From Paraspadella gotoi (taxonomy: Eukaryota; Animalia; Chaetognatha), in contig CM119265.1 of the NCBI GenBank assembly GCA_051294375.1, forward strand, positions 28,022,665 through 28,086,664: a stretch of DNA of 64,000 nucleotides. Direction: 5' to 3'. Below, in pieces: positions 12,197-45,725 of this stretch. The notes under the pieces are model-generated. The model saw only the letters and a list, made by a program, of their open reading frames with translations, did not search any database and was not told the origin of the DNA. Position numbers and translations under genes: made by a program. Numbering within the stretch: position 1 is the stretch's first letter; each line of letters opens with the position of its first letter.

Positions 12197-12459
12197 AGAA
12201 AGAGAGAGAGCGATTCGGTGCGACCGATAATTGTGACACTCGCTTCAATTTTCGTCCAATTGTTCACGTGATGTGAAATCAAGACGAGCGTTCGATTTCA
12301 GTTTCAAATTCGTTTTGTGAAAAATTAAGGAAAAATCAGTTGACGAAATTTATTCGTCGGAATAATATTCTCTCTTCTCTTTTTGTCTACTCTATTCTTC
12401 AATCTTTCTTCTCTATTTTCTGCGATTCTCTCTCTCCTGTCTATTCTCCGTTTTCTTTC

Positions 12460-13055
12460 TGTAGAAGAGATTGGCGTGGTTTATTCTCTTCATTTACATC
12501 ATTTTCTTCATTTACGTTTTCTGCATTTACTTGGGAGATTTTTCTCCACTTTCTTTCTCCTTTAGATATATAGGCCTCAGTAGATACTCATAGACTTTCT
12601 ACCCGTCCACAAACGGCTTTTCACGAGAGAGACAGAGCCGTTACGTTACGTCAAGCACCTTTTGTCACCGTTTCAGAACAGTCATTTGATGGGTCCAGGA
12701 CCCACAGGGAGACCACATAGACTCGATGTCGAGATAGACTTGTGGACACACTTGTGGAGGCCGAGGCTCAGACTTTGACCCACTGCTACGGACTTATGGT
12801 CTCACCATCTAGAGACCACAGAGGGTCTTGGTGACCTTGTCGACCACGGCCCACGTCGCCCCATAGGCGTCGACGGGCTCTTCTTCCCAAGACGGCGGCC
12901 GGCCGTAGGAGACGTCCGCGAGCAGATGTCGGCAGGGCCGCGCCCACTTCCGGCGAAGACGACGAGGGACGCGTACGTCAGTCTCTTTACGTTGGAGCAA
13001 GACGGGGAGGAGGACGGAGAGACGACCCCCACGTAGGGCTAAGACAGCCTTTACA
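12460..13055 (+). repeat. 5' LTR of the BEL/Pao element
   Basis: Starts TGTAG, ends TTTACA. Near-identical to 23813-24406, differing mostly by 1-nt indels. TATA-like TATATA at 12567-12572. Confidence 0.95.
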
Positions 13056-13065
13056 GTGAAAAGCC
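13056..13065 (+). promoter_or_regulatory. Non-canonical primer-binding site GTGAAAAGCC (candidate self-priming site)
   Basis: Abuts the 5' LTR end, lacks TGG, and is the exact reverse complement of GGCTTTTCAC at 12615-12624 inside the LTR. Confidence 0.7.
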
Positions 13066-13221
13066 TAAACTGTCTCTCCGTGTTGGGTCTCTACTCAAGT
13101 ACGGTGAGTATGACAGTATCACAGTACCTTATTTGAAGACATGAATTTATAGACATCAGTAGCTTGTAGACTAACACTGTGTATATTAAAACCTTATTTA
13201 TCTTGTTTGCATATACGCGCG

Positions 13222-16200
13222 ATGGCATCCTCTCAGCCCGATGGCCCCCCGCAGGATGGGGTGGGTGGAACTAGTCCCGAGGAATTCGCCGACCAACTTG
13301 AATGCCTGCGACATACATTCCAAGGCCTGTTCAACAGGGCCCTCGAAACCGGGACTCAGGCAGATCGTACCTCCGCAAATAGCATGCGGGAGGCCCTGGG
13401 GGCTAAGAAAGAGGCAGCGATGCATCTCGCGGGCGAGTATAGACTTCGAAATAATCATCCGTTGTCATTAGCTATAGTCAGAGTAAGAGACTTCATGGAA
13501 GATAATCCTCAATTCCCTCTAACTTTCACGGGACTGGGAAACATGACAACCACAAATAACCCTGGATCCCGACCCGGATCCCGGGCCACTTCCCCATTTC
13601 TTCCTCTCCCCAACCCCACAAGTGGAACAGTGGGAAGAGGTGGGGGCCGTGGAAGCAGTGGGCGGGCAACGCCAACAGTGGGGGGGGCAGCGGCAAATCA
13701 AGAGGAAGAAGCTCCCATAGCTTCTCGTCTCAGGTCATCTGTGTCAGCCCCTCCGTTTCAGACTGCTTTCATGACCCCCCTCTTGAGCGAAGCAAATGGG
13801 CAATTGGAGAGAAATAGACCTACGGGCGAACAATTCACTGCTTTCAGGCCGATACGCCCTGATAATCTGTCTCAAAGAATTAACACGGCAACAACTACGG
13901 GATTGTGTGCAACCGTAGCCACTGCAACAGCGACATCAACAGTAGTCACCACAACGATTATTGATACAATACCGACAGCTTCGATAACATCAGCCTATCC
14001 CCCCACAAGCTCGACAGACGAAATTCGACGAGCAGTGGAAGGGGCGATGCAGCAGGTTGTGAATGAACAGGCGGCCAGAGTCAATCAAGCTGAGGAAGAA
14101 TATGAGAGAGAATTGGCAGCTCTTCGACAACGACATCAGCAACAATTAGAGGCTGCCGAACGACAAGCGGCTCGTCAGCGCCTCAGAGTGCGACATGAGT
14201 CTGAGGAGTTGAATCGCACACTCGATGCTCGGACACTCAACGACTACAACCCGACAATCCTGCCGGCGGTTTTTTCGGGGCATGTGCCAGTATCTACGGC
14301 ACCGCCCCCGATTACAGCTGGAGTTGGCGCGGGTGTCAATGCGCCTCGGTCGGGAAATCTCCTCGCAGATTTAGCGGCAGGATTGGCCGCCCGAACTCCA
14401 AGAGTAGTCCTTCCCACCGAAAACAGCCCGCCGGCAGCAGATATTACCTCATTGAGTGGACGATTATCAGCCATGGAGATTCACGCTCAGCGTCAAGCAG
14501 CAGCCCACGAAGCTGAGAGAGAACGGTGGAGGACCGATCGAGAGAATTGGCGGGCAGAAAGGGAGAGTTATGAGAGAAACTTTGAATCAAGGGTGGTGAG
14601 GATGGTGACCATGCTAACAGGTCAAGCAAGTGCAGGAAGCGCTCTTCCAGCACCTGCCCCTCCTCCGCCACCTCTACGTCATCCCCCCCCTCCAGGTCCG
14701 CTCTTGGGAGGTTTCACGTCTCGAACAGATGTGCCAGTTCACGAGAGATGTCCTCCACTAACAAGAGACCCAATATTTCAGATCCAACAAGATCAAATTG
14801 CGCAACTGACAGATCAACTCGGTCAACTTCAAAATCGTTTAGCTAATATTAGCATGGAGAGACACGGTGAGGGAGAAGCTCTGGAGGCGCACACGCCTCC
14901 ACCGACTAATCCCCCAGAATCCAGACAATTTGAGCGTTATTTACACTCTCAGTCTACGGAATCTACTATCCGTATGCTGAAGGACTTACGTCCTGAAGAA
15001 GTGTTCATGAGTGAAGATGCAAAGAACAAAGTAGTTTTTGAGATACACATGCGGCAATGGGAATCGGTAATGTCTCAACCTGGCGTCACCGATCAGATGC
15101 GCCACCAGGAGCTGCGACACTGGTTCGGAGGCTTAGCCAGACTGAAGCTTCAAAAATACTTCCATCGTACCGATTACGCCTCAGCCGTCGCAGAAGCAAT
15201 CTCCATGCTGCAACGTGAATTTGGCCGACCGGATGCCTCTCCCCACGAGATGCTCAAAGACTGCCTATCTGGGGGAAAGGCTACGGAAGCCACAGAGATT
15301 GATGAGACAATAACACGCCTTGAAAACATCATCGGCATTGCAGAGGCCAAAGGCCGGATGCGAGACCTCAACCGTGATACCGTTATCGCCGAGATTCTTG
15401 ACACTAAATTTCCACAATGGAAAGATAAATTTGCAGAGGGAAACTCGGAATCAGTCTTCAAAAACAACAGAAAACTGACGATACATGAATTTGTCGAATT
15501 TCTTAAGATTCGCCTTGTGGCTGTAAAATCTGTCTATTTCAAGAAAAAACGATCCACTTCAACCGCTGTAGCAGCGGTGGCTTCCTCCTTGAACCCACCA
15601 CCCCCGGAAATGAACGGTGGGGGCCCACCAGAAGCCACAGGAGAGAATAGGAATAATGAGTCCTTGGACTCCTTAGAGGGAACTGATCCCACACGTTCCG
15701 AACAAAGACGAAGGAAACGATCCAGAAGAAGAAAAAGCAAAGAAAGAATACCCGAAATACCGGCTACGGCTGCTCCGAGCGAAACAGGCTGCGCCTATGT
15801 GATGGCCCAACAACCCCTGTACCAGGCCCCTCAGCCACCACAGCAGCCGATTCATCAAACAACCACAGCCGTCCCATCCCAAACACCTCAAGCGCCAACG
15901 CTGAATCCCGGAGCACCGATGTACGCATCGACACCAAATCGGCCAGCGACACTGCATTGTCACTTTTGCGGTCAGGCTCATATGATTTGGGATTGTGCAG
16001 GATATCAAGCACTTGGCGTCCAGGCGAGAGCAGACCTGATCGCAGGTAGAAGATTGTGTTTTAAGTGTTTGGGCGGATCACATTTAGCTTCAAGATGTAG
16101 AATGGGTATACAATGTACAGTCTGTAGAGGCAATCACCATATCACTCTGCATGGCATGGCACCTGTGCGCAGACTGAACCCTTTGAATCAATCAGTTCAG

Positions 16201-16455
16201 TATCAGCCAGCCCAGAGTTACCCTCAAACGCTTAGTTATGCCACTCCTGTATTCGTTAATCCCTCTCCCCCCACCCTCGCTCCCTTCCCCACAACCCAAC
16301 CCCCGTACCAGGCACCCGGGATGGTGAGTGGAGTTACAGCATTGGCCAACAATGGAGCCCCAGATGCAAGTCAAATTACTCCGAAGATGACGGCGGCTAT
16401 GCCCTCGACGGTGACGACAACGCCCACCGTCCAAGCTGGAACTGCCTCTAGTTGA
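13222..16455 (+). CDS. gag: BEL/Pao Gag (~1077 aa)
   Basis: Long ORF from ATG 13222 with the triple knuckle CHFCGQAHMIWDC / CFKCLGGSHLASRC / CTVCRGNHHITLH near the C-terminus. The N-terminal half is low-complexity and coiled-coil-like. Confidence 0.92.
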   Translation: MASSQPDGPPQDGVGGTSPEEFADQLECLRHTFQGLFNRALETGTQADRTSANSMREALGAKKEAAMHLAGEYRLRNNHPLSLAIVRVRDFMEDNPQFPLTFTGLGNMTTTNNPGSRPGSRATSPFLPLPNPTSGTVGRGGGRGSSGRATPTVGGAAANQEEEAPIASRLRSSVSAPPFQTAFMTPLLSEANGQLERNRPTGEQFTAFRPIRPDNLSQRINTATTTGLCATVATATATSTVVTTTIIDTIPTASITSAYPPTSSTDEIRRAVEGAMQQVVNEQAARVNQAEEEYERELAALRQRHQQQLEAAERQAARQRLRVRHESEELNRTLDARTLNDYNPTILPAVFSGHVPVSTAPPPITAGVGAGVNAPRSGNLLADLAAGLAARTPRVVLPTENSPPAADITSLSGRLSAMEIHAQRQAAAHEAERERWRTDRENWRAERESYERNFESRVVRMVTMLTGQASAGSALPAPAPPPPPLRHPPPPGPLLGGFTSRTDVPVHERCPPLTRDPIFQIQQDQIAQLTDQLGQLQNRLANISMERHGEGEALEAHTPPPTNPPESRQFERYLHSQSTESTIRMLKDLRPEEVFMSEDAKNKVVFEIHMRQWESVMSQPGVTDQMRHQELRHWFGGLARLKLQKYFHRTDYASAVAEAISMLQREFGRPDASPHEMLKDCLSGGKATEATEIDETITRLENIIGIAEAKGRMRDLNRDTVIAEILDTKFPQWKDKFAEGNSESVFKNNRKLTIHEFVEFLKIRLVAVKSVYFKKKRSTSTAVAAVASSLNPPPPEMNGGGPPEATGENRNNESLDSLEGTDPTRSEQRRRKRSRRRKSKERIPEIPATAAPSETGCAYVMAQQPLYQAPQPPQQPIHQTTTAVPSQTPQAPTLNPGAPMYASTPNRPATLHCHFCGQAHMIWDCAGYQALGVQARADLIAGRRLCFKCLGGSHLASRCRMGIQCTVCRGNHHITLHGMAPVRRLNPLNQSVQYQPAQSYPQTLSYATPVFVNPSPPTLAPFPTTQPPYQAPGMVSGVTALANNGAPDASQITPKMTAAMPSTVTTTPTVQAGTASS

Positions 16456-19400
16456 CTAGCGGTTGCGTCCATCCCAGGCGAAGCGACATTTCGTCCAGTC
16501 GTGCCTGTCGTTGTCGAGATGGGTGGACGCAAAGCCACGACCTACGCCATGATCGACAGCGGTTGCAACCGCTGCGTCATCAAAGAAAAAATTGCAGATC
16601 AACTAGGGTTAGCTAGAATTGAAATTCCTATGAGAATTAGAACATTAGATAGTGATACTATAATCTCAAAAAACGTTGCAGACTTTAATTTCGAACCCCT
16701 CGACGGTAGCTTTTCCATCTCCGTTAAGAAAGCCATTGTGGGAAACCTGCTGACATCAGAAGACGACCTTCCCCCTTGCAACGCAGATGTGGCTGGAATA
16801 CCTCATCTAGAGGGGGTTTCGTTTCCTGATCTCCATGACAAGGAGGTCGGGATGCTCATCCCAGCGGGATACGCCTACACATGGACTGATGGAGAAGTAC
16901 GTCGAGGCCCTAAAGATCAACCTATAGCTATGGAAACAATGTTTGGTTGGACATTGATAGGCCCGCGTCGCGGGAAAGGCGGAGATGATATAAATTGTGC
17001 CCGTCTTACCGTCGAGGAAGACGAAAAAAGGATTCAAGAAGATATTCGCCTCCTTTTCCATCGAGATTTCGTCCCAGCTCCAAGCAGCAAGAAACTGCCA
17101 TCCGTGGAGGACGAGTTCGCGATGGAACAGTTGAAGGCAACAATAAGGTTTGACAATGAAGTTGGGCATTATTTTGTTGGCCTTCCCTGGGTTAGAGGCA
17201 GGGAGAAGGCAGCGAACGTTCTTAATGGTAGGGACTCGGGGACTATGGCATTAAACCGCCTCAGATCTCTCATGAGAAAACTTGAACGCCGTCCGGGGGA
17301 CAAAAAGAAGGTGGTCGACGAAATGAAGAAGTTTGTGGATGAAGGACATGCGCGTAAGGTTGAAGGAGACAACCTTCCCGAAAATACACCGTATTGGACT
17401 CTCCCGCTTCTTGTTGTCGTACGACCAGATAAAGACAAAGTACGCATCTGCCATGACGCCCGTGCGAGCGCCGGAGGCAAATGTTTAAACGACGAACTGT
17501 TGACTGGTCCAGATTATATGACCAATATGCTGGGAGTACTGCTTCGTTCCCGGCGTCATCAAGTCGCTCTCTCTGCGGACATCCGCGGTTTTTTCCATCA
17601 GGTGTTCGTAGATGAGAATGACGTACATGTATTTAGGTACTGGTGGTTTGAAGATGAAGCGTGCACTAAACTAGCACTGTTTGAACTCAGAGTGCACATA
17701 TTTGGGGCAAAGAGTTCCCCAGTGGTAGCAAACTCTGAAGACACATGCCGAGACGCTTCGGGGATTCATCCCGTTGGAGGTGGTGGAAGCCATCATTCAA
17801 CAGTTTTATGTTGATGACTTTTTTGGGTCTGCCCCAGACGAACAATCTGCGCGTGACCTCAAAGAAGGTTTGACGGAAGCTCTCCGACGAGGTGGCTTCG
17901 AGCTTACAAAGTGGAAATGTACGTCACCATCTGTGCTGGAAGACGAACCCAACAAGGCTACAAACTTAAAAAAGTCATTTACTGACGGCAACGATAATGA
18001 TACGAAAGACGAAAAACCTTACGACAAAGTGTTGGGAGTATGCTTCTCGTTCGGCAGTGACGAATTTTCATATAATGTAAATCTCGAAAAGGTCCAGAGA
18101 AGATGTCTCACAAAAAGACAGATCTTGTCGCTCACAGCAAGTCTGTACGATCCCTTGGGTATAGTATCGCCCTTTGTTCTCAAAGGGCGCAATTTATTTC
18201 AGCGCGCGAATGCAGCTTCAGTGGATTGGGACTCCCCTCTGCCAGACGAGATCATTAAGGAGTTCGACCTCTGGAGGGAGCAAATTCCCCAGCTAAAGGA
18301 ATTCCATATGAAGCGATGGATTGCGACGCCGGAGACTACAGATCATAAGGCTGAGTTGCATGTTTTTTCTGATGCTAGCCATGATGGATATGGTGTTGCT
18401 TGTTATCGACGTACGGTACCGCCTGAAGGAGGCGAATCTCATGTTGCTTTTTTGTTTTCAAGGTCGCGAGTTACACCCCTCGACTCATCAAAGGCATCTC
18501 ACCACAACTCCATCCCTCGACTGGAGCTGACGGCGGCGTGCCTGGCGGCGGAGATAAGATACATGATTCAAGAAGAATGCACCAACGATCGGTTTGAAAA
18601 AGTTGTTATGTGGACAGATTCAGAGACAGTCCTTAAACAGATATTTGACAAAAAGTCCAAATTTGCTGCCTTTTTTAAGAATCGCTTGTCTCGTATCAGG
18701 GAGCTAACCGACATCGGAGACTGGCGGTACATATCGACCCATGAAAATCCTGCAGACGATTGTAGTCGCGGCCTTCGTCTTGATGATCCAAAGTGGAAGA
18801 GATTTCACTTCGGCCCAGATTTCCTACGTCGTCCAGAGGAGGAGTGGCCGGAGCAAAAATTATCACCGTCATCTCTTTCATCCGAAGTTTTCGTGACCGA
18901 TGTCGACGACATCGAACCAGAGGAAAACCCAAAAAAGAAAAATACTAAGGATGAACATTGGGCATTACGCATTGCGCGGCAATGTTCCGACTCACGCCAA
19001 AAACTCTATTTGATTGCCGGAATGAAAAAATGTATTCTACACTGGATTGAATGGAGACGCGCGTTGAAGATAGATCCCAACGCACAACCAAAAAAACTAC
19101 AGTACACTACGCTCAAAGACACAAAAGACGCAGAAAAACTTTTGTGCCAAGCATTACAATTACGATATTTTGCGGACGAATACCGTCATCTCGAACAAAA
19201 AAACGTCCGATCCCCAGATGCGCGAGCGGAGCTAACGCTGACAAAATCTAAACTGCGGACGCTCAATCCCTTCCTGGATGAAGCGGGCATCATTCGAATC
19301 GGCGGAAGAATTGGAAAGGCACATTTGCCTTACGATACACGACACCCCATAGTACTACCAAAAAAAGATAGGATTGTGGATGACTACATCCGACATATCC

Positions 19401-20491
19401 ACAAAACTGAGGGTCACTCGGGTGTCGATCACGTTATGGCGCATATTCGACGCCGCTTCCACATACCCTCAGCCCGTCAAACCATAAAATCTGTTTTACG
19501 ACGATGTATAATTTGTCAAAAGAATTTCCGTGGTCCAGCGACGCAGAAGATGGGTGATCTTCCGGCCGAGAGACTCGATCGCGGCGCCCCCTTTGAGGCA
19601 ACCGGGGTCGATGTCTTTGGCCCCTTTAGAGTAGTTCACGGAGGACGAGGAAGCGCAAAAAGATGGGTCGTCATATTCACTTGCATGAAGATACGTGCCG
19701 TGCACCTGGAAGTTTTGCATGACCTCTCTTCCTCATCATTCATCAATGCCCTCATTCGTTTTAACTCGCGACGACCTGGTTCCAAAAAATTTTTCAGCGA
19801 CAATGGATCCAACTTTCGTGGAGCTGACGTCGAGTTGAGGGCGGCGGTGGAGAAATGGAAGAGCGAGCAGACGATCCGTTCAATGATCAATTACGGTATA
19901 GAATGGATTTTCTCCCCCCCTCTCGCCCCACACTGGGGCGGGGTGTGGGAGCGATTAATAAAATCTGCAAAAAAACATTTAACGGTTCTTTTGGGTAAAG
20001 AAAAATTAAGTGTAGAAATACTTGCAACGGCGCTTGCTTCCGTTGAAGGAATCATGAACCGACGCCCATTGACAAGAAGTCCAGATGACCCAAATAGTCT
20101 TGACGCGCTGACACCGATGGATTTACTTTTCCCGGGCGTACACGCACCAGCAAGGAGAATAATTGTTCCGCCAGAGTCGCTCGATGGCGACGCACTTTGT
20201 AGTTCTTGGAAGGAAGCGAGGCGGATCAGCGACGAATTCTGGGATAGGTGGACACAAGAGTACGTGGTTACTCTTCAAGAACGTCAAAAGTGGAACACCA
20301 CCCAAGAAAATCTTAAAGAAGGACAATTAGTACTAATGGTAGACGAACTCAAAGCTAGAGACCAGTGGAGACTGGCACGCGTGGTTGACGCCGGAAATGG
20401 AACGCATGTCAGACGCGTGACAGTGCGGACAGCAAGTGACAAAATCTTCGAGCGAGACCGCAATCGCCTGGTCCCTCTAGAATGTGACTAA
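16456..20491 (+). CDS. pol: BEL/Pao Pol (protease, RT, RNase H, integrase) with one frameshift near 17730
   Basis: Protease AMIDSG; RT LNDELLTGP, ADIRGFFHQV, FGAKSSP, FYVDD; RNase H LHVFSDAS, IPRLEL, WTDS, NPAD; integrase H..GH..CIIC, GVDVFGP, SDNGSNF, GGVWERL. ORFs 16501-17814 and 17774-20491 join via a frameshift at ~17729-17735. Confidence 0.95.
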
Positions 20492-20812
20492 GATTATTAT
20501 TAAGATTATTATTTATAAACATAACAAGTGACTGATGCTTACATCTGGTCACCAAGACGTTATTACGTTATTATGCTTACATAAAGACGTATAAAAATAA
20601 TCAAATTTTCTGTGTTCAGAAAACTTTTACTTTTATTTTGTCTTCCAATTTTTTTTTAGCATCATTTGTAAATTCTGTTCAAAAAAAAAAAATTTTTTTT
20701 TTACTTAGATTGATTTTCTTTCCTCTTTTTTACTTCTTTTATTTATCCAAAGCCAATTTATGTCTGTTTGCAGAGTTATTTCCTTTACGATAAATTAAAA
20801 ATTTCCTTGAAC

Positions 20813-22974
20813 ATGAGTCGACAAGCTCCATCAAACTACCGTCCTCATCAACTGAACCAGCCGGGCGCGACAACCACGATCGTTACGATTCACCCAATGG
20901 CAGTGGGTTCTGCGGCCGCTTGGGTCGCCTTTGGAAGACGGCGTTTCTTGGATCCAGTGTACGCTATCCTCGGCACTTTGTCGCCGCAGGAGTTTGAATC
21001 GCAGTTAGGGCCATGGGCGGACGCGGGAGATCTTACGGCGCATCTCCCACCAGAGGGCGCACTATCTGCGCTGTGGCGCCTAAGGAAAACGAGCGGCCGT
21101 TCCATCACCATAGCAGACAACGTTAGTTGGTACCCGGGATGCACAGTCTCAAGCGCCCCAGATTCCATTGTTGTAAATCTACAACAGTCTACCTTCGATA
21201 ACTTAGACGAAGCACGGCAGGCTTTGGCCTCAGCGATTTCTCAAGGACGCAATCCCTGCCCCGCCCGTCCTTCCTCCCTCCCTTCTCTTCCTCGTGCGCC
21301 AGTTCCTCCTCCCCCCTCCCGAGCAGCAGCCATCCTGCTGCAAGAGGAGGCAAGGGCGGAGGAGCGGGCGCAACCAGAGGTTGAGATAGTGGAACGCGTG
21401 GTCGAGGAGGCATCACCTCCTCGAGCACGAAGAAAGAAAAAAAGGAGCGAACGACGCCGTACGATTAACAACGAGAGAATGGTTATGCACGCGAGAATGA
21501 TGGAGGCAAAGAACGTAACCCCTGAAGCTGCTGCTGCTTCGGTTCCAGCCAAGTCTTCTCCAGCCGGAGTGCCCGCTGTAAGCAGCGGGCAATCGGCTCC
21601 TCTCCCGGTAATGGACGTAGATGAAGATCAGGAAAAGATGGACGAGAATGATCCCTTTGGTCTCGAACAAGTCAAGAACAGCTCGACGCTATCTGCAGAG
21701 CCAAATCCTGTTGGTTTTAGCAGCCTCTGCGAGATCTCATCGCTTGGGTCGTCGAAAACTTGGTTCGATCGAGTAATCGAAGAGGAAGAGGAAGATAGGA
21801 GAAATGAGAGAGCCAAGCGAGCCGCACGTCAAAACGCAGAGATAGAACAAGATTTGGCGGCCGGCATCTTGGGACGGGTGGCGATGCATTCGCCTCAAAA
21901 TACCTCTACACCTGTCCACAATATTACAACTCCTACAGAACCAGGACAAAGGAGGTTTCTAATGAAATCAAAAGAAATTAATTTTTTTATTACATTTATT
22001 ACGTTATGTTTAATCTCTTTTACTTTATCTTTTCCCTTGTTTTCTCTTTTTCTCTCTCTTCTTCTGTCCTCTTTTTCTTTTTTTTTTCTCCTCCCCCCCC
22101 TTGTGTTCCCCATATACCCAGGTGCGACGTTTTCGATCCAAATGACTCCAACCCGATCATCGATCTGGAGTCCCTGCCAGAGAAAATTTCCGAACGCAGA
22201 AAGAGGGATTTCGGTTCAAAATCCAGCATCGAATCTTCGTCCGAAACAATTAGGGCCGGGAAAACGGAGGAGGAAGAGGAGGGAAAGAACGATAATCATC
22301 CGGACCACCAGACGTGGGGCTTACCTCGGGAGGAGGCGAATGAGGCACGCCGCCAATACCGTCAAGCTCAAGATCAACTCATGTCTGACGGCCAGATGTC
22401 GGTGGAGAGGTCTCAAAGATGGCGTGAATATAAAGCATGGGACGATCGTGGTGGCACCTTCGTTCGACCAGCTCGCCCACCAAAGAAGAAACGTACAATA
22501 ACTTTAACATCCGCGACCAGACCGAGGGGATGCCCCTCTCTCAATCCCCGTAACTTCGAAATCGACCCTAATCCTCATGGCTTTCGTTGCCAAGACGTCA
22601 GAAAGGAATATCGCGAAACTGCCATCACGTTCATTGAGAAACCTTCGGGAGAGACGACGGCAATCCCTTCAAGATCACTTTTCACTACGACGATCAAATC
22701 TTCCACTTCAGTGACCCCGACGACATCTGTCTCAATTCTACCTACAGTTACCACACCAATAAACGCAACAAGGACCGACGAAACATGCGACGAAATCAGC
22801 TTTCCGGATCCTTCCTCTATTTCTTCCACGGATGAGTCATTTGCCTCGGCCTACGACATCCCCGAGGCTGAGGCGAATTCCCCTTCCATGCCCGAGCTGA
22901 CTCTCGCAGAGGAACGATCCATCCTTGGTGAAGATGAAATCAAAATCACAATGGACGACAACGACGATCTCTAA
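20813..22974 (+). CDS. ORF3 of the BEL element; predicted spliced 664-aa protein of unknown function (exons 20813-21954 and 22122-22974)
   Basis: Two GC-rich open frames are separated by an AT/pyrimidine-rich GT...AG segment (21955-22121). Removing it joins them in frame (...PGQR-R-CDVFDP...). Basic NLS-like motifs RARRKKKRSERRR and PPKKKR. Confidence 0.7.
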
Positions 22975-23800
22975 GGTGACGATGAATTCCCGCATCTCAG
23001 ACCCGCTGGGCTCAGCGGGCCAAACGCGACGCAAGCCTCGCCAGCGTCGACGTCTTGATCTACTGCTTTCAGCGCGATCGACTCGGCGCGATGATCTCCA
23101 AAACCGGAACTGTTTTAAGGAAACGAACTTGAAATCTGGACTATTATCAAATTTATTCATGTATTTATTCATTAACTTCAAAAGACGGTGAATTTTATTT
23201 AAATTTTAAAATGGCGTTAACCTTTAAAAATCATGTTCGTACATATATTTTTTTTTCTTTTTCTATTGAACCACCAAGTTACTCTTTACGCGTTTTCGAA
23301 TTATGTACGTGAATCATGGAATCAAGATTGATTTTTCTTTCTTTAATCAAGTTGGTAAAGCAACGTTTATATATTCTGTTTATTTACTCACGTAGTGGTC
23401 ACACACATCTATGTCTTATGCTTTCATAATGTTTTATAGTAGAAAGTTGACGCATTTTTTAGGACATTTATTCATTAGCGATGACGTTAACGTTGGGATA
23501 CATTTTCTAATCATATTAATTTTGTCACTATTTCTTGAAAGCAAGATAGATCTACCGTTTGTAGCCGGGTTTTATAAACACTAAGAATAAGAACTAAAAT
23601 ATTTTCGATTCTTCCAATTTTTTTCTTCATTTTATCATTTCCTCATTTTTTTCTTTCTTTTTTTTATTATTTCCCTCCACCCTGACTCTTCTCTTCTTTT
23701 TTCCTTATTTCTGCCTTTTTTCCTTCTTTTTCCCGTCCCGACATCCCCCCCCCAGCTCGGAGCGGTGAGCGTGTTTGCTCCAGCCCTCTGAAGGAGTGCT

Positions 23801-23812
23801 GGAGGGTGGGGG
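23801..23812 (+). promoter_or_regulatory. Polypurine tract
   Basis: GGAGGGTGGGGG immediately 5' of the TG of the 3' LTR. Confidence 0.85.
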
Positions 23813-24406
23813 TGTAGAGAGTATTGGCGTGGTTTATTCTCTTCATTTACATCATTTTCTTCATTTACCGTTTTCTGCATTTACTTGGGAGATTTTTCTC
23901 CACTTTCTTTCTCCTTTAGATATATTAGGCCCAGTAGATACTCATAGACTTTCTACCCGTCCACAAACGGCTTTTCACGAGAGAGACAGAGCCGTTACGT
24001 TACGTCAAGCACCTTTTGTCACCGTTTCAGAACAGTCATTTGATGGTCAGGACCCACAGGGAGACCACATGACTCGATGTCGAGATAGACTTGTGGACAC
24101 ACTTGTGGAGGCCGAGGCTCAGACTCTGACCCACTGCTACGGACTTATGGTCTCACCACCTGGAGACCACAGAGGGTCTTGGTGACCTTGTCGACCACGG
24201 CCCACGTCGCCCCATTAGGCGTCGACGGGCTCTTCTTCCCAAGACGGCGGCCGGCCGTAGGAGACGTCCGCGAGCAGATGTCGGCAGGGCCGCGCCCACT
24301 TCCGGCGAAGACGACGAGGGACGCGTACGTCAGTCTCTTTACGTTGGAGAAGACGGGGAGGAGGACGGAGGAGCCGACCCCACGTAGGGCTAAGACAGCC
24401 TTTACA
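23813..24406 (+). repeat. 3' LTR of the BEL/Pao element
   Basis: TGTAG...TTTACA, direct repeat of 12460-13055. Confidence 0.95.
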
Positions 24407-24914
24407 CCTTTCTTCCTCTATTTTTATTTCTCATTCACTATTCCGAGTCTCTTCTTCTCTTATCTCTATTTTCTCTTTCCTATACCAGAATCTACGGCTA
24501 CCTCTCTATTCCACTTTCTTCAAACTCGAAAACAAAAAGATGCAAATTTTGAAAACTTGAAGAGGAAAACAAACAAAAGAAAATGACTAAAGCGATGACG
24601 ATGACAAAAAGGATGATGAAAATAATGACGATGACAGTGACGACGACGACGACAGCGACGACGGTGATAGCGATGACGATGACAGAGACGACGATGACAG
24701 CGACGACGGTGATAGCGATGACGATGACAGCGACGACGATGACAGAGACGACGATGATAGCGATGACGATGACAGGAATGTGGAGGAAACACGAAATATC
24801 ACTGTTTTAAAAACGATGGGAAACTTAATGACATAAACGACAAAGATGATGACAATGATAATTCGAAAGACGGCGAGAAAAAAATATCGCAATGATGGCA
24901 ATAATGAAGTCTGA

Positions 24915-40770: not shown

Positions 40771-41723
40771 CTGAAGGAAGGAAATTAATTAATTAATTAT
40801 TTATATTAATTATTTAATAAATAATAAATTTAAAAAAAAATAAATATTAAATAAATAAATTAATAAATTTAAAAAATAAAAGAATTAAAAATAAATAAAT
40901 ACAAAAATAAATGAATTGTTAGGCTTGGAACCCCGAAATCGGCCCCATCGGGATCCGGCCATCAGGGCGAGTAGCCAACTATTGGATGAAGAACTTTATC
41001 TCTAACTTGTAAATATCAAACCCTTAATTAAATCAAATATAACAAAAGACATATACCCGAGATTCGATCTCGGGACCTTGGGAAGCGGCAATGACATGTT
41101 GAGTGGCATTGCGCACACAGGCAGATACAATATAGATATTCCAATAACCTAATTATCCTTAAGTAGCATTTACTTATATGTTAAACAAATGAACAAACAC
41201 AATTAACACAGATAGATCTGCACTAGCTATCTCAACATATGTTTCACTATTGTTAACTAATTTCTCTTATTTCTCTTTTCTCTCTTCAATGAGAAAAGAA
41301 TTGTCAAATGAACTACAAATAAGTTTATGATGTTTATTACTGTTTATGCTTTATTTTGCTATTGTTGTTGCATATAGATGTTATAGCTGCTTGCTGACAA
41401 AAGCAACTGATATTCTATATGCTTTGATTATTTATTAAGGTCTGCTTTTATAATTAACCAAGCAAGTTGGTAAGAGACAATTTATTAATAAACAATAAAC
41501 TAACGGCGCCACGAGAACTACGCCAACGTCAACGTCTCCCATTTCCGGTCAACGTCTTTCCTCTTACTGATGCCCGTGGCGACGTTCCGCTCAATACCGG
41601 TTTGATCCGCACATTGGTGAAGTCCCGACTTCGACGTCGCGCCTTTCCATCTCTGAAAGGCGCTCCAACCTTCCGACACAACCACGCCTTCAAAAGACGC
41701 CGTCAATCTTCGGCGTCACCTTC

Positions 41724-42845
41724 TTGATGTCGCTTAACGTTCCAGGAGTCACGACGCGCGGCCAATCCCGGGCGACCCATCCTCCACAACCCCGCCTGCC
41801 GTCTCCACGCCTGGGGGAGGAAGAGGTCCCGGTGTCTCAAGTTGGCCGTCAATCAACGCCGACCTCAGCTGAACCGACCCAACTCTTTCAGTTTCCAGCT
41901 CCGGCCCGTTTTTTCAACAATCATCCGGCGATGGCCGAAGCCCCGCCGACCCAAACGGAGATGGATTCCCTCCGCTCCGCCCTCGACGCTGCTCTCGCCG
42001 CCGCCGAGGCCGCTCGTAACGCCTTAGCACGCAGCGAAAAACCCAAAAAACCCGAACTGCCGTCCTTCGATAAGAACAATATCGAAATTTGGATCAGAAG
42101 AGTCGAGTCAGCATATACAAGATCCAGAATCACGACTCCCAAAGACAAGTTCGCTTTTCTCGAGTCCAAGATAGCCGTCGACGTAAATCCAAAGATCAAC
42201 GCCTTTTTATTCGGTGAACCAACTGAAGAAAACTGGGCGGATTTCATTGATTACTTGAAGACCGAGTATGGTTTGACCAAACGTCGACAGGCCGAGATAC
42301 TACTGGATGCTAAAATAGGACGAGACGGCCTCAAGCCATCCCAACAGCTCGCCAGGATGGTCGAGCGTTCTCCAACAGTGACCGTGGATGACATTCGAAA
42401 GGAGCTGATTATCCGCAGCCTCCCCTTGGACATTCGTGCCAACTTAATCGATCGCGCCGATGAATTAACGGCGTCTCAATTTTCCGAGCTGGCCGACAAA
42501 CATTTTGACGCCGAGGGAAGGCCACTCTGCAAGTCCACGGCGCCCATAGTCAATGTCGTTGATGCGGAACTCGACGATTCTTTAACTGACGAAGAAAATC
42601 AAACGGCGATCAACGCCGTCAATCGACGCCGCGACCAAAACCGCTCGGCGCCGCCGAGGCATTCCAACTTCTCAAAGCAGGGCCAACCAAAGGCGCCGAC
42701 ACCGCCAGCCTCCGGATTAAAGCAAGTTTGCTTTTTTCATTTAAAGTATGGCGATGCTGCTCGACGTTGCCAACGCGGATGCGCCCGCTACGGAGAAAAA
42801 CGCGCCGATAATGCGGGAAACGCCTCGGCGAGCCGGCGCCGGTGA
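41724..42845 (+). CDS. gag: Gypsy Gag with CHCC zinc motif
   Basis: KPELPSFDKNNIEIWIRRVE N-terminal signature and CFFHLKYGDAARRCQRGC (C-X2-H-X9-C-X3-C), as in CsRn1-clade Gag. Confidence 0.85.
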   Translation: MMSLNVPGVTTRGQSRATHPPQPRLPSPRLGEEEVPVSQVGRQSTPTSAEPTQLFQFPAPARFFNNHPAMAEAPPTQTEMDSLRSALDAALAAAEAARNALARSEKPKKPELPSFDKNNIEIWIRRVESAYTRSRITTPKDKFAFLESKIAVDVNPKINAFLFGEPTEENWADFIDYLKTEYGLTKRRQAEILLDAKIGRDGLKPSQQLARMVERSPTVTVDDIRKELIIRSLPLDIRANLIDRADELTASQFSELADKHFDAEGRPLCKSTAPIVNVVDAELDDSLTDEENQTAINAVNRRRDQNRSAPPRHSNFSKQGQPKAPTPPASGLKQVCFFHLKYGDAARRCQRGCARYGEKRADNAGNASASRRR

Positions 42846-43014: not shown

Positions 43015-43189
43015 NNNNNNNNNNNNNNNNNNNNNNNNNNNNNNNNNNNNNNNNNNNNNNNNNNNNNNNNNNNNNNNNNNNNNNNNNNNNNNNNNNNNNN
43101 NNNNNNNNNNNNNNTTTGTCTACTCTATTCTTCAATCTTTCTTCTCTATTTTCTCGATTCTCTCTCCTGTCTATTCTCCGTTTTCTTTC

Positions 43190-43912
43190 TGTAGAGAGAT
43201 TGGCGTGGTTTATTCTCTTCATTTACATCNNNNNNNNNNNNNNNNNNNNNNNNNNNNNNNNNNNNNNNNNNNNNNNNNNNNNNNNNNNNNNNNNNNNNNN
43301 NNNNNNNNNNNNNNNNNNNNNNNNNNNNNNNNNNNNNNNNNNNNNNNNNNNNNNNNNNNNNNNNNNNNNNNNNNNNNNNNNNNNNNNNNNNNNNNNNNNN
43401 NNNNNNNNNNNNNNNNNNNNNNNNNNNNNNNNNNNNNNNNNNNNNNNNNNNNNNNNNNNNNNNNNNNNNNNNNNNNNNNNNNNNNNNNNNNNNNNNNNNN
43501 NNNNNNNNNNNNNNNNNNNNNNNNNNNNNNNNNNNNNNNNNNNNNNNNNNNNNNNNNNNNNNNNNNNNNNNNNNNNNNNNNNNNNNNNNNNNNNNNNNNN
43601 NNNNNNNNNNNNNNNNNNNNNNNNNNNNNNNNNNNNNNNNNNNNNNNNNNNNNNNNNNNNNNNNNNNNNNNNNNNNNNNNNNGTCTTGGTGACCTTGTCG
43701 ACCACGGCCCACGTCGCCCCATTAGGCGTCGACGGGCTCTTCTTCCCAAGACGGCGGCCGGCCGTAGGAGACGTCCGCGAGCAGATGTCCGGCAGGGCCG
43801 CGCCACTTCCGGCGAAGACGACGAGGGACGCGTACGTCAGTCTCTTTACGTTGGAGCAAGACGGGGAGGAGGACGGAGAGACGACCCCCACGTAGGGCTA
43901 ACAGCCTTTACA
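43190..43912 (+). mobile_element. Third copy of the BEL LTR (solo LTR or gap-collapsed element)
   Basis: Same TGTAG start and TTTACA end with an internal N gap. Left flank matches 12383-12459 and right flank matches 24407 onward. Confidence 0.85.
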
Positions 43913-44419
43913 CCTTTCTTCTCTTATTTTTATTTCTCATTCACTATTCCGAGTCTTCTTTCTTCTCTATTCTCTATTTTCTCTTTCCTATTCCAGAATC
44001 TACGGCTACCTCTCTATTCCACTTTCTTCAAACTCGAAAACAAAAAGATGCAAATTTTGAAAACTTGAAGAGGAAAACAAACAAAAGAAAATGACTAAAG
44101 CGATGACGATGACAAAAAGGATGATGAAAATAATGACATGACAGTGACGACGACCGACAGCGACGACGGTGATAGCGATGACGATGACAGAGACGACGAT
44201 GACAGCGACGACGGTGATAGCGATGACGATGACAGCGACGACGATACAGAGACGACGATGATAGCGATGACGATGACAGGAATGTGGAGGAAACACGAAA
44301 TATCACTGTTTTAAAAACGATGGGAAACTTAATGACATAAACGACAAAGATGATGACAATGATAATTCGAAAGACGGCGAGAAAAAAATATCGCAATGAT
44401 GGCAATAATGAAGTTCTGA

Positions 44420-44453
<34 letters not shown>

Positions 44454-45073
44454 CAGAAACGAAAATGACGAAGATATAATGAAGGAATAATGAGGAATGA
44501 TGAAAATTAAAAGAAAGACCATGAGTAAAATGATAATGATGACGATGACGATGACAACGAAAACAACAACAACGACGAGACACCTCCCCTAAAAAAAACG
44601 AATTTCTAACGAAATTTAAATTTTCCTTTCAAAATTATTTCGTTCAAAGGAGCAGAAAAGAGTTTAAATTTGAAGAGTAGAGCTGATTTAAGGAGCTTAA
44701 TAATGTTGAGGAGTTAAAGAGAGGAGTTTTTTTTAATTTAAAATGTGTCAAGATTGAATGAAGGAGTCAACCGAAATGGATTCACGTGAATAAGAAATTC
44801 ACTTAATCAAATTCAATAAAAAATTGTTAAGTAAATGAGTTGTATGAAAAAATAAATATATGAAAAGGTGGCCGGTGAAATATGAAATACTTACGAATAA
44901 GTTTGGTTTGTCGAAAATATTCAAAGAATCTTTTTCCACCGAAAATGAAAAAAAAAGAAAATAATTTATTTTTTCTTTTTGTGCTGATCAAAAAAAAAAT
45001 GGGGGCATCGAGTGAAACCATCACCGGCGCCAAAAAGTGTGAAGATTCACAAAGAAGGAAGATGCAAATTGAA

Positions 45074-45143
<70 letters not shown>

Positions 45144-45725
45144 AAGAACGTGCATGTCATTGTGAATGCCGTCTTTAGGACGAAACAAATTCGGGTCTTT
45201 TTGAAAATGTTGTTGTTGTCGTTGTTGTTTTTTGTTTTTTCTGTTCTGGTTCTGAAGACGATTTAAAAAAGAAAAAGCATAAAAATAAAGAAAGAAAAAA
45301 CTGTATACAATACGTCGGTATCAAGAATTAACGTCTTAGAATAGTAATAAATAAAAAAAATTTAAAAAATGAAAGAATTCATTCGGGGTCTCAGAAATTG
45401 TCGAATTCCTCAGATCAAACAAAAATTCTTTATCTATTTATGTCTTCTAATGTTTTTTTCCTTGTTAATGCAAAGTTTTTACGTCGCGATAAAACGAGGT
45501 ATTTACTCGATTTAAATTTTGATTAATACCAGCGATTAGTTATGATAGTTTTTAAATTAAGTAAGGTTAAACTGATATGACATTGAGCGAAGTTCAATAG
45601 CTGAAATTACAAAAAAAAAACATCGTTAGTTTGCTTGAGGGAACCTGACATTTTATGACGTTGTAAGAAAGTTTGTGTATAATCTAATTTGTATAATTAG
45701 TGTCATATCATCAACTTATCTCTAG

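What the first reader, a model, noticed from the sequence alone, without database searches (positions are those of the whole stretch)
13014..13081. U5-leader and U5-IR stems frame the PBS, as in the Tf1/retroviral priming structure
Seen: ACGGAGAGAC (13014-13023) pairs perfectly with GTCTCTCCGT (13072-13081), looping out the PBS. GTAGGGCT-aagac-AGCCTTTAC (13033-13054) forms a hairpin at the LTR end. GAGAGACAG (12627-12635), right after the putative primer, is also complementary to CTGTCTCTC (13070-13078), giving a competing pairing. Inference: a pseudoknot-like initiation complex, possibly switchable, that positions cleavage after 12624. This is independent support for self-priming.
Basis: partly seen in the sequence, partly recalled or inferred. 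Interest (0 to 1): 0.72.

Follow-up and report, generated by a model that had tools for sequence, protein, structure and literature searches.

The report
Self-priming BEL/Pao element; stems not conserved
A jumping gene in an animal genome has no tRNA landing site and instead carries ten letters that pair with its own terminal repeat, so it likely starts copying itself with its own RNA; the two flanking stems are predicted to form in this copy, but most relatives lack them.

Summary
All three pairings exist as written. They surround the primer-binding site (PBS, 13056-13065) of a BEL/Pao LTR retrotransposon. The U5-leader stem (10-11 bp) and U5 hairpin dominate predicted folds and sit where two Tf1 'pretzel' duplexes sit. 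They are not independent proof of self-priming. A significant U5-leader helix occurs in 1 of 13 self-complementary relatives and also in 1 of 5 tRNA-type elements. A pretzel test with shown power finds no enrichment (2 of 16, Fisher p 0.2). The 'switch' pairing looks like chance (p 0.10, 0 of 13 relatives). Self-priming is supported by other evidence: the PBS pairs with its own LTR over 10-13 nt, in different letters, in 13 of 14 non-tRNA families, 0 of 5 tRNA-type elements and 2 of 342 non-self pairs. In 7 families the match exists only across a GT-AG intron inside the LTR. No RNA or biochemical test was possible. The scan noted BEL/Pao self-priming and splice-junction primers before, on other genomes; my literature searches found neither.

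The parts
12460..13055 (+). 5' LTR (TG...CA), 596 bp
   Evidence: 97% identical to 23813-24406
12567..12572 (+). TATA-like box, 47-48 nt before the primer; use unproven
   Evidence: sequence; a sister family in Logan contigs shares 12589-12621 but diverges just upstream
12615..12624 (+). putative self-primer, complementary to the PBS (11 bp from 12614 with the G allele at 13066)
13014..13024 (+). 5' arm of the predicted U5-leader stem
13033..13054 (+). predicted U5 hairpin at the LTR end (U5-IR-like)
13056..13065 (+). non-tRNA PBS, abutting the LTR end; 13066 is T or G among copies
13071..13081 (+). 3' arm of the predicted U5-leader stem
13104..13109 (+). splice-donor-like GTGAGT just past the leader stem (inferred)
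   Evidence: sequence
13153..16455 (+). gag-like ORF (first ATG 13222; three Cys/His knuckles), ends in TGA followed by CTAG
   Evidence: no Pfam hit
16456..20491 (+). pol (protease, RT, RNase H, integrase), in frame behind the gag stop; broken by one frame change near 17730-17810
   Evidence: Asp_protease_2, Peptidase_A17, Integrase_H2C2, DUF5641; 120 listed homologues
20714..22974 (+). extra ORFs of unknown function after the integrase
   Evidence: no Pfam hit
23801..23812 (+). polypurine tract
   Evidence: sequence
23813..24406 (+). 3' LTR; its copy of the U5-leader arm is disrupted

Best explanation
This is a BEL/Pao retrotransposon whose primer site pairs with its own LTR, so it likely primes reverse transcription with a piece cut from the front of its own RNA, and the two stems are likely a fold peculiar to this element that helps expose the site rather than a conserved requirement. 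Shown: element anatomy, non-TGG PBS, 10-11-nt primer:PBS match, and the same match in different letters in distant families. Predicted: the U5-leader stem and U5 hairpin loop out the PBS. Inferred from Tf1: the transcript starts at or shortly before 12614, 12615-12624 anneals to 13056-13065, RNase H cuts after 12624, and the freed 3'-OH is extended into U5. Inferred: plus-strand synthesis copies the primer into the new PBS, which would keep the two matched while their letters drift.
For: Own-LTR match of 10-13 nt in 13 of 14 non-tRNA families (L036 has 12 of 13 with one mismatch), 0 of 5 tRNA-type, 2 of 342 non-self pairs, and 0 of 300 downstream pseudo-PBS positions in each of the 13. Among non-TGG elements whose LTR end is fixed by two LTR copies, 9 of 10 match, including young L080 (identical LTRs, 5-bp TSD), found afterwards. 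Sister families change both sides together (L036/L075; L022/L023/L049). Every matched PBS starts with GT. AATAAA/ATTAAA lies 37-129 nt downstream of the primer in 8 of 14 families, placing it at the 5' side of R. tRNA-type elements form a separate clade. Stems not shared: U5-leader 1 of 13 relatives, Fisher p 0.21; pretzel Fisher p 0.2, whereas planted 6+6 bp gives 2e-4; leaders of L036/L073/L075 diverge while U5 is kept.
Against: No transcript start, cleavage or cDNA end was observed. The TATA-like box suggests a start near 12597, about 17 nt before the primer, unlike Tf1. This LTR has no poly(A) hexamer, so R cannot be placed. The relatives with LTRs are distant (30-35% protein identity to the query) and outside the window's own clade, so the stems could be conserved within that clade unseen. 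For the stems: last-45-nt U5 hairpins are mildly enriched (3 of 14, Fisher p 0.008), L016 has an 11-bp U5-leader stem, and Logan contigs list variants at 12958-13006 but none at 13007-13055. L028 has defined LTRs and no match; 4 of the 14 LTR ends were fixed only by CA plus the match.
Confidence: 0.6

Rival explanations
1. One reading: self-priming that needs a Tf1-like three-duplex pretzel; the U5-leader and U5 hairpin stems are essential in this lineage and position the cut after 12624.
For: Both stems dominate predicted folds and flank the PBS as the Tf1 duplexes do (PMC10085805 passage). No variant is listed in 13007-13055 among family contigs. The window's clade has no other LTR sampled.
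Against: No enrichment in 15 other self-complementary loci although the test detects planted stems. Such stems also occur in tRNA-type L021. The window's own two-stem score is p 0.41 (low power).
Confidence: 0.22
2. The primer is the same LTR segment but comes from another RNA end or molecule: the 3' LTR copy at the poly(A) site, or a short or solo-LTR transcript acting in trans.
For: Sequence alone cannot tell which LTR copy supplies the primer. This LTR has no poly(A) hexamer. An earlier scan note proposes the poly(A) version for other elements. A trans primer would explain how intron-containing LTRs keep their intron.
Against: The poly(A) signal lies well downstream of the primer in 8 of 14 families. 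In L023 a TATA box lies 35 nt before the splice donor, putting the start at the paired segment.
Confidence: 0.09
3. A host RNA (half-tRNA or other small RNA) primes, and the LTR match is a by-product or serves packaging or dimerisation.
For: Half-tRNA priming is known in copia lineages (PMC6317226 passage). No host tRNA set was available to exclude it.
Against: The PBS letters differ among 15 families and track each element's own LTR, even across splice junctions. A shared host RNA would not do that.
Confidence: 0.05
4. RNA switch: 12627-12635 competes with 13014-13023 for the leader and toggles priming.
For: The 9-bp complement exists; duplex energy -13.7 against -16.9 kcal/mol.
Against: Pair probability at most 0.03; p 0.10 and 0 of 13 relatives; common word in this genome. 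Pseudoknot energies could not be computed.
Confidence: 0.04

Closest known systems
Tf1/Tf2/Tj1/Tosmo and the Tf1/sushi group (Ty3/gypsy chromoviruses): self-priming with the three-duplex 'pretzel'
   Same: 10-11-nt PBS right after the 5' LTR, complementary to the own LTR; two predicted duplexes beside the PBS in this copy; TGA-CT stop between gag and pol as in Tj1/Tosmo (PMC10085805, PMC7175516, PMC4600332, passages).
   Different: BEL/Pao proteins, no chromodomain hit; flanking duplexes not conserved in relatives; the primer may not be at nucleotide 1; in 7 related families the primer spans an intron.
Belpaoviridae / Semotivirus as described by ICTV (PMC8742986, whole text)
   Same: LTRs, PPT, gag and PR-RT-RH-IN order, Peptidase_A17 and DUF5641.
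   Different: ICTV describes an 18-nt PBS for a host tRNA; here the PBS is 10-11 nt, lacks TGG and matches the own LTR. Length 11.9 kb, above the stated 4.2-10 kb, with extra 3' ORFs.
Retroviral (Rous sarcoma virus) U5-IR and U5-leader stems
   Same: Same position around the PBS (from recall; only the paper's title was seen).
   Different: They accompany tRNA priming, so their presence says nothing about the primer's source.
Plant Tcn1 (gypsy) and TAR/Houba/Osr-1 (copia) predicted self-primers
   Same: Self-priming predicted from PBS-LTR complementarity outside fission yeast (PMC6317226, passages).
   Different: Other superfamilies; no BEL/Pao case in the passages seen.

Membership tests
BEL/Pao LTR retrotransposons | Pao-type pol (Peptidase_A17, DUF5641), order PR-RT-RH-IN | tested here: met
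   homologues carry PF05380, PF18701 and often PF00078
BEL/Pao LTR retrotransposons | TG...CA LTRs and PPT | tested here: met
BEL/Pao LTR retrotransposons | named clade (Suzu, Sinbad/Sailor, Tas, Dan, Flow) | not testable with these tools
   no reference sequences; the window sits in its own clade, FastTree support 1.0
Belpaoviridae as described by ICTV | 18-nt PBS complementary to a host tRNA 3' end | tested here: not met
   the PBS starts with GT, not TGG, and matches the own LTR; filed as a variant, not as a textbook member
Tf1/sushi self-primed elements | PBS complementary to the own LTR downstream of the promoter | tested here: met
Tf1/sushi self-primed elements | primer is the first 11 nt of the RNA | not testable with these tools
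   only contigs, no raw RNA reads
Tf1/sushi self-primed elements | two further PBS-adjacent duplexes (pretzel) in this element | tested here: inconclusive
   predicted to form, p 0.03-0.41 by search space
Tf1/sushi self-primed elements | pretzel shared across the group | tested here: not met
   2 of 16, Fisher p 0.2; power shown
Tf1/sushi self-primed elements | RNase H cut at the primer's 3' end | not testable with these tools
   biochemical
Tf1/sushi self-primed elements | Ty3/gypsy chromovirus with chromodomain | tested here: not met
   BEL/Pao domains, no chromodomain hit

The most novel reading that the evidence does not exclude
A large marine branch of BEL/Pao elements has dropped tRNA priming for a self-primer that needs no Tf1-type pretzel. 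In about half of the sampled families the primer exists only after the host spliceosome removes an intron from the 5' LTR, making splicing a licence for reverse transcription, while the 3' LTR copy of the intron must stay unspliced to be inherited.
Probability: 0.6. Interest if true: 0.8.

Novelty: new variant of a known kind. Interest (0 to 1): 0.58.

Why it matters
BEL/Pao elements are described as tRNA-primed, and self-priming is known from Ty3/gypsy (shown) and copia (predicted) lineages. A self-primed BEL/Pao branch would be a further origin, or an old retained state, which bears on whether hairpin or tRNA priming came first (raised in PMC3601003). Lack of a shared pretzel suggests that this RT/RNase H reads only the primer:PBS duplex with its fixed GT start, which is testable in vitro. 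The stems themselves, the subject of this finding, add little: they are an ordinary PBS-framing fold.

Tried and rejected
No whole genome is held, so no copy survey and no host tRNA set. No tRNA gene in the window; no Rfam match in 12400-13300. Viral contigs gave nothing in 4 scans; genome contigs gave one locus, L080. No RNA holder was listed; all runs laid were contigs, so no start or cleavage site. Whole-duplex energy of U5 with leader: 0 of 14 significant, the window included. Pairing of LTR nt -9..-2: 1 of 14. Post-primer against downstream R/U5: 1 of 14. The row for that register was mis-set by one base and is ignored. Chance hits of the de novo scan (L033, L038, L053, L066, palindromes in L011/L016, one upstream site in L013) were dropped because they are not at LTR ends. 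19 of 79 loci were not scanned (too little flank); most others lack the 5' end. L057 and L069 were left out of the tree (L057 through my trimming error, and its tRNA-type PBS may belong to a neighbouring element). The extra 3' ORFs show no similarity to that of L002. Stacking energies are recalled Turner-type values with rough G-U terms. No pseudoknot folder and no Tf1 positive control were available.

Full report
Observation. The three complementarities are in the sequence at the stated coordinates. The U5-leader stem gains one G-U pair (11 bp). The hairpin is 4+4 bp with one bulge; alone it folds as a 6-bp core at -6.1 kcal/mol.

Context. The region is the end of the 5' LTR (12460-13055) of an 11.9-kb element whose 3' LTR (23813-24406) is 97% identical and is preceded by a polypurine tract. 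Pfam gives Asp_protease_2, Peptidase_A17, Integrase_H2C2 and DUF5641: BEL/Pao. The gag-like ORF ends in TGA followed by CTAG with pol in frame; pol has one frame change; extra ORFs follow the integrase. The ten bases after the LTR (13056-13065) do not start with TGG and are the reverse complement of 12615-12624. In Logan contigs of the same organism 13066 is T (X2, X6) or G (X1); G makes the match 11 bp.

Do the stems form? In nested folds of four regions with primer and PBS masked, mean pair probability is 0.81-0.96 for the U5-leader stem, 0.94-0.98 for the inner and 0.46-0.48 for the outer hairpin half, and at most 0.03 for the competing pairing. Unmasked, primer:PBS and U5-leader exclude each other (0.92 against 0.07 from 12609; 0.00 against 0.99 from 12595) because they cross; a pseudoknot could not be scored. 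The region is not unusually stable (z -1.05), and one shorter context gave another register. The U5-leader helix has p 0.027 in a narrow search; the two-stem score has p 0.41 in the full post-primer LTR, where power is low.

Relatives. I located LTR ends by self-comparison of all 79 and scanned 60 of 79 for PBS-LTR matches. This gave 13 families besides the window with a non-TGG PBS and 5 tRNA-type elements (labels from recalled PBS motifs). The loci closest to the window (L001-L003) lack their 5' ends.

Primer:PBS is the conserved feature. Own-LTR matches of 10-13 nt occur in 13 of 14 families (shuffled-PBS p 0.002-0.006), in 0 of 5 tRNA-type elements and in 2 of 342 non-self pairs, one of them between sister families. 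L036 scores 6 by the strict rule and has 12 of 13 with one mismatch. Four LTR ends (L020, L043, L049, L074) were fixed only by CA plus the match, so they are not independent. Restricting to non-TGG elements with two LTR copies gives 9 of 10; L028 is the miss, and L080, with a 4-nt spacer outside my first scan range, matches over 11 nt. Sister families change both sides together. In 7 families (L004, L018, L020, L022/L032, L023/L026, L048/L050/L052, L049) the uninterrupted match is only 5-7 nt, but 11-13 nt (15 in L032) across a GT-AG intron of 72-404 nt inside the LTR; splicing is inferred from signals, not seen in RNA. In a midpoint-rooted FastTree of pol (97 rows) the tRNA-type elements fall in one clade (support 0.88-0.99) and the window in a separate clade (1.0); without an outgroup the order of events is open.

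The stems are not conserved. Best uninterrupted U5-leader helix: significant in the window and L016 only (1 of 13 relatives, Fisher p 0.21) and in tRNA-type L021 (14 bp, p 0.002). Whole-duplex energy: 0 of 14. [quoted passage not shown] Planted perfect stems are found in 13 of 14 (10+8 bp), 8 of 14 (8+6) and 3 of 14 with Fisher p 2e-4 (6+6). In L036/L073/L075 a U5 hairpin is kept with a variable loop while the leader diverges. The switch has p 0.10 in the window, 0 of 13 in relatives, and its 9-mer recurs at 4 unrelated places.

Mechanism. Most likely Tf1-like self-priming: the RNA front anneals to the PBS, RNase H cuts after 12624, and RT extends into U5 (Tf1 steps from PMC7175516 and PMC5341516, passages; their use here is inferred). 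The poly(A) hexamer lies 37-129 nt downstream of the primer in 8 of 14 families, so the primer is on the start side of R; the window's LTR has no hexamer. The stems probably present the PBS in this element but appear not to be what the enzyme family needs. Self-priming in some form I put at about 0.9.

Comparison and novelty. It works like Tf1/sushi but is not a member (BEL/Pao proteins, no chromodomain hit, no shared pretzel). It is BEL/Pao by protein but does not fit the ICTV description of an 18-nt tRNA PBS (PMC8742986, whole text). Nine searches listed no paper on self-priming in BEL/Pao. Term look-ups in four BEL/Pao papers (PMC554778, PMC3118150, PMC6238403, PMC8556966) found no mention of PBS or priming. 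I read passages of PMC3601003, PMC4600332, PMC6934838, PMC6317226, PMC7175516, PMC5341516 and PMC10085805. Lin and Levin 1998, Miller 1997 and Esnault and Levin 2015 were not held (titles only). Subscription journals, Repbase entries and supplements were not seen and may hold earlier notice. Earlier scan notes report BEL/Pao self-priming and splice-junction primers in other genomes; I had both results before that call, and the notes are not counted as support. No note covers the stems.

Verdict. Observation confirmed; interpretation partly supported. The stems are real but ordinary and give no independent evidence; the switch is unsupported; the self-priming they were meant to back is well supported by covariation of primer and PBS.

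Noticed in passing
L004, L018, L020, L022/L032, L023/L026, L048/L050/L052, L049 (LTRs): The PBS matches the own LTR only across a predicted GT-AG intron (72-404 nt): splice-junction primer. The intron must survive in the 3' LTR copy to be inherited.
   Followed up: partly
window 16453-16459; L003 ~1989; L001 ~1044: gag and pol are separated by an in-frame TGA followed by CTA or CTG and GC in all three; the homologues' pol ORFs (about 1330 aa) start at the protease. Likely stop-codon read-through in a BEL/Pao clade.
   Followed up: partly
window 13104-13109, 20714-22974; L002 2900-4810: Splice-donor-like site just after the leader stem and an acceptor-like site near 20773 before extra low-complexity ORFs; L002 also has a long extra 3' ORF without detectable similarity. 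Possibly a spliced accessory gene.
   Followed up: partly
   Followed up: no
window 12589-12621 and 12937-12971: Logan contigs of a diverged sister family share only these two LTR blocks, the first ending in the primer; its U5 end and PBS would be the best covariation test but could not be read.
   Followed up: no
window 43115-45535: Second copy of both flanks with LTR ends around an N gap: haplotype duplicate or solo-LTR allele of the same insertion.
   Followed up: partly
window 12454-12459 and 24407-24412: The target-site duplication is imperfect (6 bp with one mismatch) in both copies of the locus.
   Followed up: no
window 23740-23812: A C-rich stretch about 60 nt upstream is complementary to the polypurine tract, a possible PPT hairpin.
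   Followed up: no
L080 6091-13085: A young intact-looking BEL/Pao element with animal-like repeats lies in a contig titled as a bacterial MAG: probable host contamination.
   Followed up: no
L011, L013, L022, L036, L062, L074, L075 LTRs: A CACGTG E-box recurs in U3 of many relatives.
   Followed up: no
window 41571-42845: ORF with a weak DUF7041 hit (E 0.003), possibly another retroelement gag.
   Followed up: no
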